This document shows positions 1-21,000 of a DNA stretch of 64,000 bases, one piece after another. The stretch covers positions 28,024,001-28,088,000 of the forward strand of contig NC_083288.1 in the NCBI RefSeq assembly GCF_963506605.1. Reading direction: 5' to 3'. Position numbers: made by a program. Position 1 is the first letter of the stretch. The number at the start of each line of letters is the position of its first letter. This stretch comes from Zootoca vivipara (taxonomy: Eukaryota).

Positions 1-3000
1 TGGCTAGTTACCTCTCCACCTTTCCCTGATCTTGATATGACTACACAGCCTAAGGAGATCGTTGTACAATGTAATGAAGGCACAGGCTCCATGTTTTACA
101 CTATCATGGGCTACATAGGCTTTCAGGCCAGTGTCAGCTTCACAGTGGCCTTCCTAGCCAGGAAACTGCCTGACAGTTTCAATGAAGCCAAGTTTATCAC
201 CTTCAGCATGTTGGTCTTCTGCAGTGTCTGGATATCTTTCATTCCAGCCTATCTGAGTACCAAAGGCAAATACATGGTGGCTGTGGAGATCTTCTCCATC
301 CTGGCCTCGGGTGCTGGGTTGCTGGGATGTATATTTGTCCCTAAAATGTACATCATTATTTTGAAACCAGAAATGAACACTAGGGACCAATTCTTTAAGG
401 AAAAATAATTTCATTAAACCACAGAGAAGATTATTTTGCAGAGATTCCAGCAATGAGCAGCAAGTCAGCAAGACATAGCCCAGAAGTGGACTCTATATTG
501 TATGTGCTAAGTTGCATAATGTCCATGACACCCTATGTTCCTATCTGAAAATAATAAACTGTGAAAGCACCAAAATGTAATTCATTTCATTTTCAGTGCC
601 ATACTTCCTGGCTATCTTCTTAATTGGCAAAATTGACTAAATATTTGTCTCATTAAATGGATTGTATGACTGGATCCAATAGGGAAGATTTGGTGCTGTG
701 GAGGGAGATATTCAATGTTCATATACGATCTCCACCCACATCTACTATATTTTGTATTAGCCTAAAACCACAGTGCAGAGATGGAGAGAATACAGAAGGT
801 GACAATTAAATAGTTGCATCTTCCTTTGTCATCTACCTCATGAGAAAAGTGCTTGTGAAGGCAGGCCCCTTTAATTCCAGGAATAAGGACTGCTTTTGCT
901 GAAAACTGAAGCAGATATGGTGGTATTCAGAGTACACACCTTAAGTTAATAGACAAGACTAACATGTTCATTAATTTCCGTGGGTTTACTCTGAGTATAG
1001 CACCATTGATTTAATAAATTTATTTCTTAGGCTCTCTTTTCCTTTCTGAGGAAAATAAAAGGTATCTAATTAGAGCAGATTAATAACCAACATAAACAAA
1101 CATTTCAATACAGGATTGCAGGGTGAGGCTGCAATCCTAACTCCATTTAGGATTTTTGTAGTGAAAAAAGGAGGAAAGGGTAAAAGGTTTAAGGTGATAA
1201 TGAGGGTGACAAAAAGAAAAGGAAAGGAGGGAGTAAGAAACGTGGGAATTGGGTTTGAAGGTGAAATCAGAATTTGAGTGGATGTTGGCTTCATAATTGG
1301 GTGCAAGGGGAGAAGTATGCTTAGTAGTTGCAATGTGTGGTAAGAGGAAAGTGCAAGGTGTTTTCCATGGAGCTGCAAATTGCAGGCTGTAGAAAATGAG
1401 AGGGAAGAGGTGAAGCTGAAAATACAGGTGCAAAACTGAGTTGCAGAATAGAAGGGAGAAGCTGGGGCAGAGATTTCAGCAAGTAGAGTGTTTTGGTGGG
1501 GGGGGGGGGTGATGGCAAGTGAACTAAAGGAGGCAGAGTCTCCTTAGATAATGAATAATGGTCCAACAGAATCCTCAAAGATTTAATTGGAACAATCTAT
1601 TAATTGTAGCTCCCTTTTTAACTAACTAAAACAAATCACTGATTTGCCAGCAATATCATTAGCAGGAAAACTAGGCCAACTAATGAAATTCACAAAGGAG
1701 TTGGCCTCAAGAGTAGAAAAGTGGTGGTTAAAATGCCCTGTTTCCAGCATTGATTCTTCTGTTAAAGAGCAAAATTCATAGGCTAGTGAGATATTCTTTA
1801 TTGTGAATTATAGTTTCCTAAGTATCTCTAGAATAATTTGAAAAATGCAAATAATTCCATTTCCATATTTTTTCTCATTCATGTTCCCCTCCTTTTCTTC
1901 CATATCTACTGCATGGACAAAAGATATCAACGAAGAAACAATGGAAAATAGCACCTCAGTGAATGCATTTATTTTACTAGGTTTTTCTAATGTTCCAGAT
2001 TTCAAACTCCTTTTCTTTGTAGTGTTCCTGTGCATCTACCTTGTCACTGTCTTTGGCAATGTCATCATCATTGTCATCATTAGTGTTGATGCTGCCCTCC
2101 ACACTCCCATGTACTTCTTCCTCAGGAACTTGTCTTTCCTGGAGATCTGCTATACTTCAGTCACAATCCCCAAGTTGCTTGAGAACATTGTCGCTCTTGA
2201 CAAAACCATCTCTTTGCGTGCATGTGCCACTCAAATGTATTTTTTCCTCTTCTTCGGTGCCACTGAGTGCTGTCTCCTAGCCATCATGGCTTATGATCGC
2301 TACATCGCTATATGCAATCCACTGCGCTACCCGGTAATTATGAGAAAGAGAGCATGTGTTCATTTTGCTGCCTTTTCTTGGGCTTGTGGCTGTCTGGTGG
2401 CTGTGGGTCATACCACCTTCATTTTCAACCTTCCTTTCTGTGACTCCAAGGTCATCAACCATTTCTTTTGTGAAATCCAGCCAGTTCTAAAACTAGTGTG
2501 TGGGGATACATACTGGAATGAAATCCAAATCATTGTAGCTGCTGCATTTGTAATCCTGATGCCTTTCATGTTGATCCTTATGTCTTATTTCCACATCATT
2601 TCTACTATCTTGAGGATGCAATCAGCCCAGAGCCGCCAGAAGGCCTTCTCCACCTGCTCCTCACACCTTGTGGTTGTCTCCTTGTTTTATGGGACAGCCA
2701 TTTTTATATACATACGCCCCAAATCTAGCTACTCTCTGAATGTGGATAAGCTTCTCTCGCTCTTCTATTCTGTTATTACTCCCATACTGAATCCAATTAT
2801 CTACAGTCTGAGGAACAAAGAAGTGAAAGGAGCTCTCAGGAAGACAGTGTTGAAACTAATCCCATCCAACTGATATCCTAGTTTTAAAAGCAGAGAGTTG
2901 ACTATGAGACACTGTCAGCCTGTGCAAAAATTAAAGGCTCTTGATAGAGTTCATCATAGTAATACTAACTATGGAACATAAATATGTACAACAACAATAG

Positions 3001-18000: not shown

Positions 18001-21000
18001 CTATCAAGCTAAGTATTATATACAATGCCAAACAGTTTCAGAAAGGATTCTTTCCCAGCACCACCTGGAGAGATCAGGAATTGGTAAAGCAGGTGCTCTA
18101 CCATTGTGCAATGGCTTCTCTTTTTAAAAACAAAACAAAAAACTTTATTGAGATTTTAATTAAAACATATCAAATCATAACAAAACAAATTGAAACAAAT
18201 CAACTCAAAATATAAAAATTCATACAGATATCATACTTCCAAATTTACATCTGAAAAGTAATTGATATCTAATACATAATTTGACTAAACCTTCCTGTCT
18301 AGTCTTTTCCTCTATGACATCCAAATAAAAAACACTTAATATTTCTCCTAAACAGATAAATTTTCCTCCTTTTCCATGTACTTCCTCTTGCCTTGATCTT
18401 GGTCTCTTTAAGCTTTTGATTGATTACTGCTTCCCTCACCCAATGTTTCACCTGTGTTTCCTTTTGTTTTATAATCTTTACCTGCAGTACTGGTCTCTAG
18501 AAATGAATCCAGGATTTTAATGTGGGACATTGTTGCTTCATATAATTTCCGAATCCCCCCCCCCAATTTTGTTCAAAATTCTGTTTACTGCCGCCTCTAA
18601 TCGAATTGGTTAATTTTGCTAAATCTACATATCCAAATCATTTTTCCTGCCACTCATCAATTTTTGGTATATCTTGTCTTTTCCAATACGTGGCTATTAA
18701 TATTCTTGCGGCTGCAGTTGCGTATAAGAATATTTTTTGATCCTGGTTTTTTTTTATCCTGTGCAATGGCTTCTCATAGAAATGCCACATCCAGAAATGT
18801 TGTTTTCAGCTGTAAAAAAAAGAAATCTTTAACTGTTTTAGCCACACAAAAACCCAAATAAACCCTATGAAATTTTGCACTTTGCAAAATTCTGCTGGAA
18901 CATTTTGTCTATAAATTGGTTCTATAATTCTATGATTGCAGCATCTGTTCTAACTTTTTATTATTTCCATTTTCAAATTCATATTTTCAATACAAAATAA
19001 AAAAAATTCCTTCAGTAGCACCTTAATGACCAACTAAGTTTATATTTTGGTATGAGCTTTCGTGTGCAAGCACACTTCTTCAGATATTTTCAATAGTTTA
19101 TCAATACCCACCCACACCCTTTCTGTGTTTGTGAACAAGCTTGCACATTAATGAAAGAAGAGGATAGGGACAAAGCCAAGAGTGTCTTGCATAGTTTGGT
19201 GATAGTTTGGGATTAAAAAAAATAGTTTGGGATTTTAAAAAACAAGAAGACAAGACATTGTAATACTGTTTGTTTGTTTGTTTGTTGTTTGTAGATGCAA
19301 GAATACTGGTTTGTGGAACCTCTGAACCATACCATAGTGACAACGTTCATTATTCTGGGCTTCCCTAATACTAGGAAGGTGGAAATTGTGCTCTTTTTTC
19401 TCTTCCTTGCTATGTACCTTCTTACAATGACTGGCAACATAATCATAATCATAACAGTTAAGACAGACAGCCACCTTCAAACCCCCATGTACTTCTTTCT
19501 GGGAAACCTCTCTTTCTTGGACATTGGCTATACATCTTCAACAGTCCCTAAGCTGCTGTCTATCTTGTTGATGGGGGTGCACACAATTTCCTTTGCTGCC
19601 TGTTTGCTACAGTCCTACTTCTTCTTTTTTCTTGGGACAGCTGAGTGCTTCCTCCTTGCAGTGATGGCCTATGACCGATATGTGGCCATATGCTATCCGC
19701 TCAGATATTCAACAATCATGAATAAAAGAGTGTGTGTGTTTCTCGTGGTTGCCTGCTGGGCAGGAGGCTGTCTGGCCCCTATGGTAGCTGCCATAGTGGT
19801 GGTGAATTTACCCTTTTGTGGGCCCAACGTGATAAACCATTTCTTTTGTGATATTCCACCATTACTAAAACTGGCTTGCGTAGACACATCTCTTACACAG
19901 AAGATTGTATTCTTCCTTTCTGCTGTGGTGATTCTGAGCACGTTCCTGTCCACTGTTGTCTCCTATATATACATTAGCATAACCATATTGAGAATACCTT
20001 CCTCACATGGGCGCCGCAAGGCTTTCTCCACTTGTGCCTCCCATCTTACTGTCGTCTCTCTATATTATGGGACGGTGATCTTCATGTATGTAAGCCCAAC
20101 TACTCGTTCATCTTTTGACCTGAACAAAATCATAGCTGTGGTGTACAGTGTCGTTACTCCAATGCTCAACCCTATGATCTACACGTTGAGGAATAAGGAT
20201 ATGAAAGCAGCACTGAAAAAAATAATCCTCAAAGTGCAGATTGCTAAGAAGAAGCTTGATTTCTCCAGTGAATTCAGTCGCTGAGAAAATTATGTCTGCA
20301 ATGGTGAAAATGGAACATCATAGGCACCAGACGGGTGGATTTGCATCCAGGGATGGGCATATAAGTCTATTTCCGCTCTATGTAACTTTAGCATGTGTGT
20401 GATCCAACTCATCTCATTGCCACATCAGTCTACAGCTTCTTTTTAATTTAAATAGAAATATCCAATAAAATACGTTTGCATTCAGATTTTTCTCAACAAA
20501 ATAATTTTTTTAAAACATGCATGTTATTTGTTGTTTGAGCAGAGAACAGTGTCAAAATATATGGGAAGTATGAACACTGGTAATCATCATATTCAATCTG
20601 AAGTGAACAGGACAGAGTGAACTAAAAAGTAGCTCCCAAGTATTAAGAATCATTGACTTCTTCTCCAACATGCCCATAACAAAAGAATTAATAGTGGAAT
20701 ATGCAATTATCAATTTCCTTGGCCAATTTTTCTTCTTCCCTATCATTATCTGATGCAATAATTAAAGGGGGTCTACAAGTAACTTGGGACGTGGTTGGCG
20801 CTGTGGGTTAAACCACAGAGCCTAGGGCTTGCTGATCAGAAGGTCAGCGGTTCGAATACCTGTGACGGGGTGAGCTCCTGTTGCTCGGTCCAAGCTCCTG
20901 CCCACCTAGCAGTTCAAAAGCACACCAAAGTGTAAGTAGATAAATAGGTACCGCTACAGCGGGAAGGCATTTCCGTGTGCTGCTCTGGTTCACCAGAAGC

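What the first reader, a model, noticed from the sequence alone, without database searches (positions are those of the whole stretch)
1..20284. Olfactory and vomeronasal receptor genes interleaved: V2R - OR - V2R - OR on one strand
Seen: an intact OR lies about 1.5 kb after the V2R-A stop and 1.4 kb before the V2R-B ATG, and further ORs follow V2R-B. Known: ORs (class A GPCR, main olfactory epithelium) and V2Rs (class C GPCR, vomeronasal organ) usually form separate arrays under separate gene-choice control. Inference: at this spacing the OR promoter must lie in or near the V2R-A 3' region, and the V2R-B promoter abuts the OR 3'UTR. Shared enhancers, read-through transcription or vomeronasal expression of the OR are therefore plausible, giving a hybrid chemosensory locus.
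Basis: partly seen in the sequence, partly recalled or inferred. Interest (0 to 1): 0.75.

Follow-up and report, generated by a model that had tools for sequence, protein, structure and literature searches.

The report
Smell and vomeronasal receptor genes interleaved
Two vomeronasal-type (V2R) receptor genes and two ordinary odorant receptor genes really do alternate on one strand at the edge of an odorant receptor cluster, but nothing in the sequence shows that they share regulation, and mixed clusters of this kind are already known in rodents.

Summary
On the + strand lie:
- the last-exon tail of a class C receptor, V2R-A (1-408);
- an intact class II odorant receptor, OR1 (1941-2873);
- V2R-B, a six-exon class C receptor with open frames and GT/AG junctions (4303-14155);
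- an intact OR2 (19295-20284).

Spacings are 1.4-1.5 kb, 1.4 kb and 5.1 kb, and there is no N in this stretch. Beyond 20 kb the window holds only OR genes, pseudogenes and a LINE. So this is where a V2R pair meets a class II OR cluster, with one OR sandwiched between the V2Rs.

V2R-A and V2R-B are old paralogs under purifying selection (dS 0.35, dN/dS 0.13). Their homology runs about 740 bp past the stop, through a conserved AATAAA, and ends about 700 bp before OR1. OR1 and OR2 are only 51% identical, so the ORs were not copied along with the V2R 3' end.

The regulatory reading is untested. That reading covers shared enhancers, read-through and vomeronasal OR expression. I found no shared upstream sequence and no O/E motif enrichment. 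Each V2R has its own poly(A) signal.

Mixed OR/vomeronasal clusters are described in mouse and rat. My verdict is a real but ordinary product of birth-and-death duplication, of modest interest.

The parts
1..408 (+). V2R-A: C-terminal 135 codons plus stop of the last (7TM) exon. The gene continues upstream of the window.
   Evidence: Open from base 1 to TAA at 406-408. Pfam 7tm_3 E 4.3e-42. 367 of 405 nt and 121 of 135 aa identical to V2R-B, dS 0.35, dN/dS 0.13.
406..1149 (+). V2R-A 3' flank, paralogous to the V2R-B 3' flank. Contains the likely V2R-A poly(A) signal AATAAA at 553-558.
   Evidence: blastn: 406-1149 vs 14439-15150, 70.8% over 790 columns. MAFFT alignment: 80% over 667 aligned columns, with AATAAA just before a conserved CTGTGA in both copies. 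Homology stops at 1149/15150.
1941..2873 (+). OR1: intact class II odorant receptor in a single coding exon, 310 codons from ATG 1941 (the ORF is open from ATG 1845).
   Evidence: Pfam 7tm_4 E 1.1e-54. PDB best hit consOR2 at 6e-113, class I OR52c only 2e-48. All 5 hallmark motifs present. Nearest OR in the window is OR3 at 60% aa.
4303..4511 (+). V2R-B exon 1 (209 nt): ATG, leucine-rich signal-like N-terminus, donor GTAAGT.
   Evidence: Weak match to the N-terminus of T1R2, residues 10-70, E 9e-4. No Pfam hit.
5540..5831 (+). V2R-B exon 2 (292 nt), start of the ligand-binding domain.
   Evidence: AG acceptor and GTGGGA donor, entered with 2 bases of a split codon carried over, which fits exon 1. 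ANF_receptor E 2.4e-10. CaSR residues 67-164, E 1.3e-12.
7736..8593 (+). V2R-B exon 3 (858 nt), main part of the ligand-binding domain.
   Evidence: ANF_receptor E 1.5e-25. CaSR residues 166-364 of 7sil_A, plus a second weak stretch further on in 5fbh_B; best E 1.1e-22. AG acceptor and GTAATG donor.
9521..9748 (+). V2R-B exon 4 (228 nt).
   Evidence: CaSR residues 463-531, E 0.004. AG acceptor and GTAGGT donor. No Pfam hit.
11486..11612 (+). V2R-B exon 5 (127 nt), cysteine-rich linker with 6 of the 9 cysteines.
   Evidence: Pfam NCD3G E 1.7e-14. CaSR residues 537-576, E 4.6e-6. The frame with exon 6 holds only with the second donor, GTACGT.
13248..14155 (+). V2R-B exon 6 (908 nt including the stop): last 3 linker cysteines and the whole 7TM domain.
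   Evidence: 7tm_3 E 2.7e-86, profile positions 3-251 of 251. CaSR residues 580-872, E 7e-81. Nearest Atlas clusters include 'vomeronasal type-2 receptor 26(-like)' at ranks 2 and 3, scores 0.97 and 0.95; rank 1 has a generic family 3 GPCR name.
14153..14440 (.). Insertion of about 290 bp with terminal inverted repeats, at the end of the V2R-B reading frame. Absent from V2R-A.
   Evidence: Gap opposite V2R-A in alignment A1. Inverted arms 14151-14165 and 14428-14442, 15 nt, 93% complementary.
14439..15150 (+). V2R-B 3' flank, paralogous to 406-1149, with AATAAA at 14601-14606.
19295..20284 (+). OR2: intact class II odorant receptor, 329 codons.
   Evidence: 7tm_4 E 6.6e-56. PDB best hit OR6A2 at 2.5e-118, OR52c 4e-54. 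5 of 5 motifs. 51% aa identity to OR1.
23169..24158 (-). OR3: intact OR, the closest relative of OR1 in the window (context, outside the finding).
   Evidence: 7tm_4 E 1.5e-57. 60% aa identity to OR1, joined to it in the tree with support 84/93. Synonymous sites saturated, pS 0.80.
27491..62425 (.). The rest of the OR cluster. Intact: OR4 29585-30502 (-), OR5 36738-37730 (+), OR6 45412-46395 (+), OR8 57416-58402 (+). Pseudogenes: 47816-48776 (+) and 61574-62425 (+). Fragment: 27491-27999 (-). No V2R exon anywhere here.

Best explanation
This is a genuine mixed chemoreceptor cluster: the place where a pair of tandem V2R paralogs meets a class II OR cluster, with one OR caught between the two V2Rs.

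It most likely arose by ordinary birth-and-death tandem duplication. V2R-A and V2R-B come from one old duplication whose 3' breakpoint lies at 1149/15150. The ORs are much older lineages of the neighbouring OR cluster.

Shown here: gene identities, intact reading frames, spacing, paralogy, the duplication boundary, and purifying selection on the V2R tails.

Inferred: each gene is a separate transcription unit, with the V2Rs ending at a conserved AATAAA and each OR using its own promoter. Also inferred: each gene is chosen in its usual neuron type, so that the close spacing has no special regulatory consequence.

A simple model that fits the abrupt end of homology is a tandem duplication of a 14-kb unit, 1150-15150, carrying OR1 plus V2R-B. 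That model predicts an OR1-like gene upstream of V2R-A, outside the window.
For: Gene identities:
- Pfam 7tm_3, ANF_receptor, NCD3G and 7tm_4.
- V2R-B exons 2-6 are collinear with CaSR residues 67-164, 166-364, 463-531, 537-576 and 580-872.
- All five introns are GT/AG with consistent phases, and the exon lengths sum to 2622 nt, or 873 codons plus stop.
- The nearest Atlas clusters for exon 6 include ones named vomeronasal type-2 receptor 26(-like).
- ORs: 7 of 7 intact ORs carry 5 of 5 hallmark motifs. OR1 and OR2 score far better against class II than class I structures.

Paralogy and age:
- 1-416 vs 13739-14154 is 90.6% identical, and 406-1149 vs 14439-15150 is 70.8%.
- dS 0.35, dN 0.045, dN/dS 0.13.
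- OR1 vs OR2 is 51% aa. OR1 vs OR3 is 60% aa with pS 0.80, which is saturated.

Separate units:
- AATAAA is conserved at aligned positions 553 and 14601.
- There is no sequence similarity between the OR1 and V2R-B upstream regions.

Assembly and context:
- No N in 1-20284, and no V2R exon in 20-64 kb.
- Mixed OR/VR clusters exist in mouse and rat (PMC6744719).
- A rattlesnake Z-chromosome array is drawn with ORs and V2Rs in a colour-coded figure (PMC12400810, legend only).
Against: - There are no expression, chromatin or comparative data, so independence of regulation is inferred, not shown.
- The spacing is tight. Only about 1.37 kb separates the V2R-A poly(A) signal from OR1's ATG. Between OR1's stop and the V2R-B ATG there is no AATAAA and only one ATTAAA, at 2930, so some transcriptional overlap cannot be excluded.
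- The V2R label rests on architecture, tandem copies and automatic cluster names, not on a tree with reference V2Rs. The Atlas names for exon 3 were generic or taste/GPRC6A-like.
- The 14-kb unit model cannot be tested inside the window.
Confidence: 0.7

Rival explanations
1. Hybrid chemosensory locus. Because of the 1.4-kb spacing and common orientation, OR1 shares enhancers or transcripts with the flanking V2Rs. It is then expressed in vomeronasal neurons, as a foreign receptor captured by a vomeronasal regulatory neighbourhood.
For: - Same strand, with gaps of 1.4-1.5 kb.
- No AATAAA between OR1's stop and the V2R-B ATG.
- Precedents: mouse Olfr692 is expressed in basal vomeronasal cells with clade C V2Rs and without clade ABD V2Rs (PMC4753656, passages).
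- FPR genes lie interspersed among vomeronasal receptor genes (PMC6744719) and are said to have hijacked a vomeronasal regulatory sequence (PMC7873101, start of abstract in search listing).
Against: - Each V2R has a conserved AATAAA.
- OR1's upstream has no similarity to V2R-B's upstream.
- No strict acceptor lies before OR1's ATG, and there is no donor-like site in 409-1940 or in the V2R-A last exon.
- In mouse, vomeronasal OR expression was judged unrelated to genomic position (PMC4753656).
- In corn snake, one OR probe labelled the main epithelium only (PMC3590772).
Confidence: 0.12
2. OR1 is intact by sequence but silent: a stranded gene cut off from the OR cluster's enhancers by the V2R-B insertion, not yet decayed.
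For: OR1 is separated from the other ORs by the 9.9-kb V2R-B gene. No O/E-type motif lies near it. Pseudogenes are common in this cluster: 2 pseudogenes and 1 fragment beside 7 intact ORs.
Against: OR1 keeps a full 310-codon frame with 5 of 5 hallmark motifs. Meanwhile the V2R duplication beside it has aged to dS 0.35. A neutral 930-nt frame would be unlikely to stay open that long; this is an inference and was not computed.
Confidence: 0.1
3. Assembly artefact: a V2R contig and an OR contig were joined wrongly, or V2R-A/V2R-B are a duplicated haplotype.
For: Receptor arrays are hard to assemble, and no read data are available here.
Against: There is no N or gap in 1-20284. V2R-A and V2R-B differ by 9% in coding sequence and 20-29% in the flank, with a TE-like insertion in one only. 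That is far too different for haplotypes or a duplicated assembly. OR1 would need two false joins, 2.4 kb apart.
Confidence: 0.05

Closest known systems
OR/VR-mixed clusters and miniclusters of the mouse and rat 'olfactome' (Degl'Innocenti et al. 2019, PMC6744719; passages read)
   Same: Odorant and vomeronasal receptor genes lie within one cluster. The authors already raise shared enhancers and vomeronasal expression of an OR (Olfr371).
   Different: Those clusters are defined at a 1-Mb threshold. The named examples are V1R-OR pairs, a VR cluster ending in one OR pseudogene, or a mainly-VR cluster with a few ORs. Here an intact OR sits 1.4-1.5 kb from a V2R on each side, in a non-mammalian-looking locus.
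Rattlesnake Z-chromosome chemoreceptor array (Hogan et al. 2025, PMC12400810; figure legend and results read)
   Same: ORs and V2Rs are both on chromosome Z. A zoomed 'large gene array' is drawn with ORs and V2Rs colour-coded, with single-exon ORs and six-exon V2Rs.
   Different: Only the legend could be read, not the figure or supplement, so I cannot say whether ORs and V2Rs alternate there at kb scale. The species of this window is unknown.
Mouse Olfr692, an OR expressed in basal vomeronasal neurons (Nakahara et al. 2016, PMC4753656; passages)
   Same: It shows that an OR can be chosen in V2R-zone cells, together with clade C V2Rs and in place of a clade ABD V2R. That is what the hybrid-locus reading would predict for OR1.
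   Different: The authors state that vomeronasal OR expression is not related to genomic position. No expression data exist for OR1.
Formyl peptide receptor genes inside the mouse vomeronasal receptor cluster (PMC6744719; PMC7873101, abstract start in search listing)
   Same: A receptor of another family is interspersed among vomeronasal receptor genes.
   Different: FPR expression is attributed to capture of a vomeronasal regulatory sequence. Here OR1's upstream shows no similarity to the one V2R upstream region available.
Calcium-sensing receptor (closest solved structure to V2R-B)
   Same: Same domain order, with exon-by-exon collinearity.
   Different: The ligand-binding exons match only weakly (E 1e-22 for 286 residues, 0.004 for exon 4), and the gene is present in two tandem copies. 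It is a CaSR relative, not CaSR.

Membership tests
V2R / OlfC (class C vomeronasal type-2 receptors) | Venus-flytrap ligand-binding domain, nine-cysteine linker and class C 7TM domain, in that order | tested here: met
   ANF_receptor in exons 2 and 3, NCD3G in exon 5, 7tm_3 in exon 6. There are 6 cysteines in exon 5 and 3 at the start of exon 6.
V2R / OlfC (class C vomeronasal type-2 receptors) | Six coding exons with the 7TM domain in the last one (the legend in PMC12400810 says V2Rs typically span 6 exons) | tested here: met
   Six exons, five GT/AG introns, consistent phases, 2622 nt in total. CaSR and its other relatives share this feature, so it does not single out V2Rs.
V2R / OlfC (class C vomeronasal type-2 receptors) | Falls inside the V2R clade rather than with CaSR, GPRC6A or T1R in a tree | not tested
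Leads only: for exon 6 the Atlas clusters at ranks 2 and 3 are named vomeronasal type-2 receptor 26(-like), scores 0.97 and 0.95, while rank 1 is generic. Exon 3 clusters have generic, taste-receptor or GPRC6A-like names. By PDB score CaSR ranks above mGluR, which ranks above T1R.
V2R / OlfC (class C vomeronasal type-2 receptors) | Occurs as tandem paralogs | tested here: met
   V2R-A and V2R-B are on the same strand 13.7 kb apart, 90.6% nt identical in the last exon, with homologous 3' flanks.
V2R / OlfC (class C vomeronasal type-2 receptors) | Expression in vomeronasal sensory neurons | not testable with these tools
   No expression data.
Odorant receptors, class II | Olfactory-receptor 7TM profile in a single uninterrupted coding exon of about 310-330 codons | tested here: met
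   7tm_4 E 1e-54 (OR1) and 7e-56 (OR2). The ORFs are 310 (from ATG 1941) and 329 codons.
Odorant receptors, class II | Hallmark motifs, recalled by me rather than taken from a tool: N-terminal N-x-S/T, PMYFFL, MAYDRY, KAFSTC, NPxIY | tested here: met
   5 of 5 motifs in each of the 7 intact ORs.
Odorant receptors, class II | Closer to class II than to class I (OR51/52) receptors | tested here: met
   OR1: consOR2 6e-113 vs OR52c 2e-48. OR2: OR6A2 2.5e-118 vs OR52c 4e-54.
OR/VR-mixed chemoreceptor cluster (sense of PMC6744719) | Members of both receptor groups within the clustering distance | tested here: met
   The gaps of 1.4-5.1 kb are far below the 1-Mb threshold used there.
Functionally hybrid locus (shared enhancer, read-through or promoter capture) | The OR carries a vomeronasal-receptor-derived upstream or regulatory sequence | tested here: not met
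   Neither 1080-1900 (OR1 upstream) nor 2874-4302 (V2R-B upstream) matches the other or anything else in the window, except the last 70 bp of the V2R flank homology. Only one V2R upstream region was available.
Functionally hybrid locus (shared enhancer, read-through or promoter capture) | Chimeric or read-through transcripts, or OR expression in vomeronasal neurons | not testable with these tools
   This needs RNA or chromatin data. Sequence hints are mixed: the V2Rs have a conserved AATAAA, but there is no AATAAA after OR1.

The most novel reading that the evidence does not exclude
The 14-kb stretch 1150-15150, carrying OR1 plus V2R-B, is one copy of a tandem module in which an odorant receptor and a V2R are amplified together. 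The array upstream of the window would then alternate OR-V2R-OR-V2R. The sandwiched ORs would be chosen in V2R-zone vomeronasal neurons in place of a V2R, as Olfr692 is in mouse.
Probability: 0.08. Interest if true: 0.7.

Novelty: new member of a known kind. Interest (0 to 1): 0.3.

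Why it matters
If the sandwiched OR were shown to be driven by V2R regulation, it would be a natural experiment in how a receptor gene's position decides which sensory neuron type chooses it. That question is open for both OR and vomeronasal receptor choice.

As the evidence stands, the locus shows something more modest. V2R and OR arrays can interdigitate at kilobase scale by ordinary duplication. It also gives precise coordinates, including a duplication breakpoint at 1149/15150, that make the question cheap to test with RNA data or with the next 15 kb of sequence.

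Tried and rejected
- O/E-type motif TCCCNNGGGA (recalled consensus), up to 1 mismatch: 7 matches against 18.9 expected, none between V2R-A and OR1. No support for or against a promoter. The match at 15392 lies in a dispersed repeat.
- Splice acceptors before OR start codons: a strict pyrimidine-tract plus YAG site lies within 44 nt of the ATG in 4 of 7 intact ORs (OR2, OR4, OR6, OR8). The rate is 11% in 20,000 random windows, binomial P 0.004. OR1, OR3 and OR5 fail the criterion. OR2's tract is a (TGTT)n microsatellite, so its site may be fortuitous.
- In 409-1940 there is one acceptor-like site (597) and no donor-like site, so OR1's 5' structure stays unknown.
- Retroposition of OR1: no A-run or obvious flanking duplication after its stop. 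Rejected.
- Co-duplication of the OR with the V2R 3' end: rejected. Homology ends about 700 bp before OR1, and OR1 and OR2 are 51% identical.
- Rfam at gathering thresholds over the whole window: 0 matches.
- My first exon 5 coordinates (11485-11610) were one base out of frame and gave stops. They were corrected to 11486-11612.
- Atlas search with exon 3 gave only generic, taste-receptor or GPRC6A-like names.
- Literature (7 searches; 12 papers opened): I found no text stating kb-scale OR-V2R alternation in squamates. Hogan et al. 2021 is not held. Figures and supplements could not be seen. PMC10869828, PMC11035023, PMC5318403 and the preprints 2025.11.03.686341 and 2026.10.06.756852 yielded nothing on co-location. 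The Komodo (10.1101/551978) and sea-snake (PMC8557462) papers draw unnamed 'non-V2R genes' inside V2R clusters.
- The genome-contig collection (bacteria and archaea) and the phage, plasmid and E. coli collections were not used, because they cannot hold relatives of this locus.

Full report
**What is there**

The window is a vertebrate chemoreceptor locus, about 40% G+C, with one N run at 31563-31709 that I left alone. In 1-20284 the + strand carries four receptor genes.

- V2R-A is present only as the last 135 codons of its 7TM exon, open from base 1 to TAA at 406-408 (Pfam 7tm_3 E 4.3e-42).
- OR1 is an uninterrupted ORF at 1845-2873 (7tm_4 E 1.1e-54). The ATG at 1941 is the likely start, because the protein from there aligns residue 1-306 to 1-306 of a solved OR.
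- V2R-B starts at ATG 4303 and ends at TAG 14153-14155.
- OR2 is 19295-20284 (7tm_4 E 6.6e-56).

The gaps are 1,436 or 1,532 nt (V2R-A stop to OR1), 1,429 nt (OR1 stop to V2R-B ATG) and 5,139 nt (V2R-B stop to OR2).

**The V2R-B gene model**

| Exon | Coordinates | Length (nt) |
|---|---|---|
| 1 | 4303-4511 | 209 |
| 2 | 5540-5831 | 292 |
| 3 | 7736-8593 | 858 |
| 4 | 9521-9748 | 228 |
| 5 | 11486-11612 | 127 |
| 6 | 13248-14155 | 908 |

All five introns begin with GT and end with AG, and the phases agree. The lengths sum to 2622 nt, which is 873 codons plus a stop by arithmetic only. Exon 5 keeps frame with exon 6 only through the second of two adjacent donors (GTACGT).

Pfam finds ANF_receptor in exons 2 and 3, NCD3G in exon 5 (E 1.7e-14) and a full-length 7tm_3 in exon 6 (E 2.7e-86). 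It finds nothing in exons 1 and 4.

Against solved structures the exons fall in order on the calcium-sensing receptor:
- exon 2 on residues 67-164;
- exon 3 on 166-364;
- exon 4 on 463-531 (weak, E 0.004);
- exon 5 on 537-576;
- exon 6 on 580-872.

Exon 1 matches only the N-terminus of a taste receptor, weakly (E 9e-4). All nine linker cysteines are present.

By PDB score CaSR ranks above mGluR, which ranks above T1R (7e-81, 3e-43 and 1e-26 for exon 6). The ligand-binding exons are distant from CaSR. Together with the tandem copy, this makes the gene a CaSR relative, not CaSR itself.

The name V2R rests on three things: the architecture, the tandem paralog, and the Atlas. For exon 6, the Atlas clusters at ranks 2 and 3 are automatically named 'vomeronasal type-2 receptor 26(-like)' (scores 0.97 and 0.95), while rank 1 has a generic name. 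For exon 3 the names were generic, taste-receptor or GPRC6A-like. I could not build a tree with reference V2Rs.

**The ORs**

All 7 intact ORs of the window carry 5 of 5 hallmark motifs. The motifs are recalled, not taken from a tool. OR1 and OR2 score far better against class II than class I structures (6e-113 vs 2e-48, and 2.5e-118 vs 4e-54).

**Surroundings**

A tblastn search with each V2R-B exon finds no V2R exon anywhere in 20-64 kb. That part holds:
- OR3 (23169-24158, -);
- an OR fragment (27491-27999, -);
- OR4 (29585-30502, -);
- OR5 (36738-37730, +);
- OR6 (45412-46395, +);
- a frameshifted OR (47816-48776, +);
- LINE reading frames with endonuclease and reverse-transcriptase domains (51222-53180);
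- OR8 (57416-58402, +);
- an OR with a frameshift and a stop (61574-62425, +).

So the finding is the edge of a class II OR cluster into which two V2Rs reach, with one OR between them. What lies upstream of V2R-A is unknown.

**History**

V2R-A and V2R-B are 90.6% identical over the shared 416 bp of the last exon, or 121 of 135 residues. They have dS 0.35, dN 0.045 and dN/dS 0.13, so both copies have been under purifying selection since an old duplication.

Homology continues past the stop for about 740 bp. It is 70.8% by blastn with gaps, or 80% over 667 aligned columns, and it ends at 1149/15150. Within it, both copies keep an AATAAA just before a conserved CTGTGA (553 and 14601). This is the likely V2R poly(A) signal.

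OR1 begins about 700 bp beyond the end of that homology. OR1 and OR2 are 51% identical. OR1's nearest relative here is OR3 (60% aa, tree support 84/93), with synonymous sites saturated at pS 0.80. The ORs are therefore far older than the V2R duplication and were not copied with the V2R's 3' end.

The sequence after 1149 matches nothing else in the window, while that after 15150 runs into dispersed repeats. This is what a tandem duplication of a unit 1150-15150 (OR1 plus V2R-B) would leave. That model predicts an OR1-like gene upstream of V2R-A, which I cannot check. Insertion of a V2R copy into an OR cluster fits equally well.

Misassembly is unlikely. There is no gap, the two V2R copies are far too diverged to be haplotypes, and only V2R-B has a 290-bp insertion.

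**Regulation**

Points against coupling:
- The V2Rs have their own conserved poly(A) signal.
- OR1's upstream and V2R-B's upstream share no sequence.
- An O/E-type motif is under-represented (7 found against 18.9 expected) and absent near OR1.
- Under a strict criterion OR1 has no splice acceptor just before its ATG. 4 of the 7 intact ORs do (11% in random windows, P 0.004).
- No donor-like site lies in 409-1940.

Points for possible overlap:
- All four genes share a strand.
- Only about 1.37 kb separates the V2R-A poly(A) signal from OR1's ATG.
- There is no AATAAA between OR1's stop and the V2R-B ATG, only an ATTAAA at 2930. About one AATAAA would be expected by chance in that length (my estimate), so its absence means little.

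**Literature**

Mixed clusters are known. Degl'Innocenti et al. 2019 (PMC6744719, passages) classify mouse and rat OR/VR-mixed clusters and miniclusters. They suggest shared elements, and they note an OR next to a V1R that is expressed in the newborn vomeronasal organ.

Nakahara et al. 2016 (PMC4753656, passages) show Olfr692 in basal vomeronasal cells with clade C V2Rs and without clade ABD V2Rs. They state that vomeronasal OR expression is not related to genomic position.

In corn snake, OR transcripts in vomeronasal libraries were put down to contamination, after one OR probe labelled only the main epithelium (PMC3590772, passage).

For rattlesnake, ORs and V2Rs both lie on chromosome Z, and a zoomed array is drawn with both colour codes (PMC12400810, legend and results). 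I could not see the figure or the supplement.

Seven searches turned up no text describing kb-scale OR-V2R alternation in squamates. Hogan et al. 2021 is not held.

**Limits**

The open collections hold no vertebrate genomes. As a result the species, the orthologs and the gene order elsewhere stayed unchecked. I do not take the contig for human, because it carries an apparently intact six-exon V2R in tandem copies.

**Verdict**

This is a real mixed chemoreceptor cluster of a kind already described at coarser scale, most likely built by ordinary tandem duplication. Interest is modest unless expression data show that the sandwiched OR follows V2R rules.

Noticed in passing
window 14151-14442: An insertion of about 290 bp, bounded by 15-nt inverted repeats (93% complementary), sits exactly at the end of the V2R-B reading frame and is absent from V2R-A. 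The ancestral TAA position reads GAA in V2R-B, the frame runs three codons further, and the TAG stop straddles the insertion boundary. The target sequence appears duplicated on both sides (about 11 nt, imperfect).
   Followed up: partly
window 45412-46395, 47816-48776, 57416-58402: Three ORs form a young tandem family, 85.6-88.8% nt identical (82% aa between the two intact ones). The middle copy is frameshifted after about residue 221. A LINE with endonuclease and reverse-transcriptase frames (51222-53180) lies between the second and third copies.
   Followed up: partly
window 61574-62425 and 27491-27999: Two more dead ORs: one with an N-terminal frameshift and an in-frame stop (+ strand), and one fragment covering only the C-terminal part (- strand, 77% aa to OR3 over residues 241-317).
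   Followed up: partly
window 6072-6313, 6705-6910, 10088-10338, 10847-11195: V2R-B introns 2 and 4 carry dispersed repeats of 200-350 bp with copies elsewhere in the window (20786-21135, 41368-41563, 43565-43770, 44943-45191) at 83-97% identity. The minus-strand translation of 6717-6920 reads a basic, arginine-rich peptide that I recall from the 3' end of BovB/RTE-type retrotransposons. That resemblance is from memory and was not tested.
   Followed up: no
window 1120-1530: A purine-rich stretch of about 400 bp, including a run of about 12 G near 1500, lies between the end of the V2R flank homology and OR1. It leaves a 157-codon stop-free frame on the minus strand. It has no match elsewhere in the window and no family hit was sought.
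   Followed up: no
window 15184-15423 vs 28152-28383 and 60321-60435: A dispersed repeat begins right after the V2R-B flank homology ends. Two of its copies each carry a one-mismatch O/E-like site (15392 and 28174), so those motif matches are repeat-borne.
   Followed up: no
window 19267-19292: A (TGTT)n microsatellite abuts a TAG directly before OR2's ATG. It looks like a perfect splice acceptor, but it may just be a simple repeat followed by the in-frame stop.
   Followed up: partly
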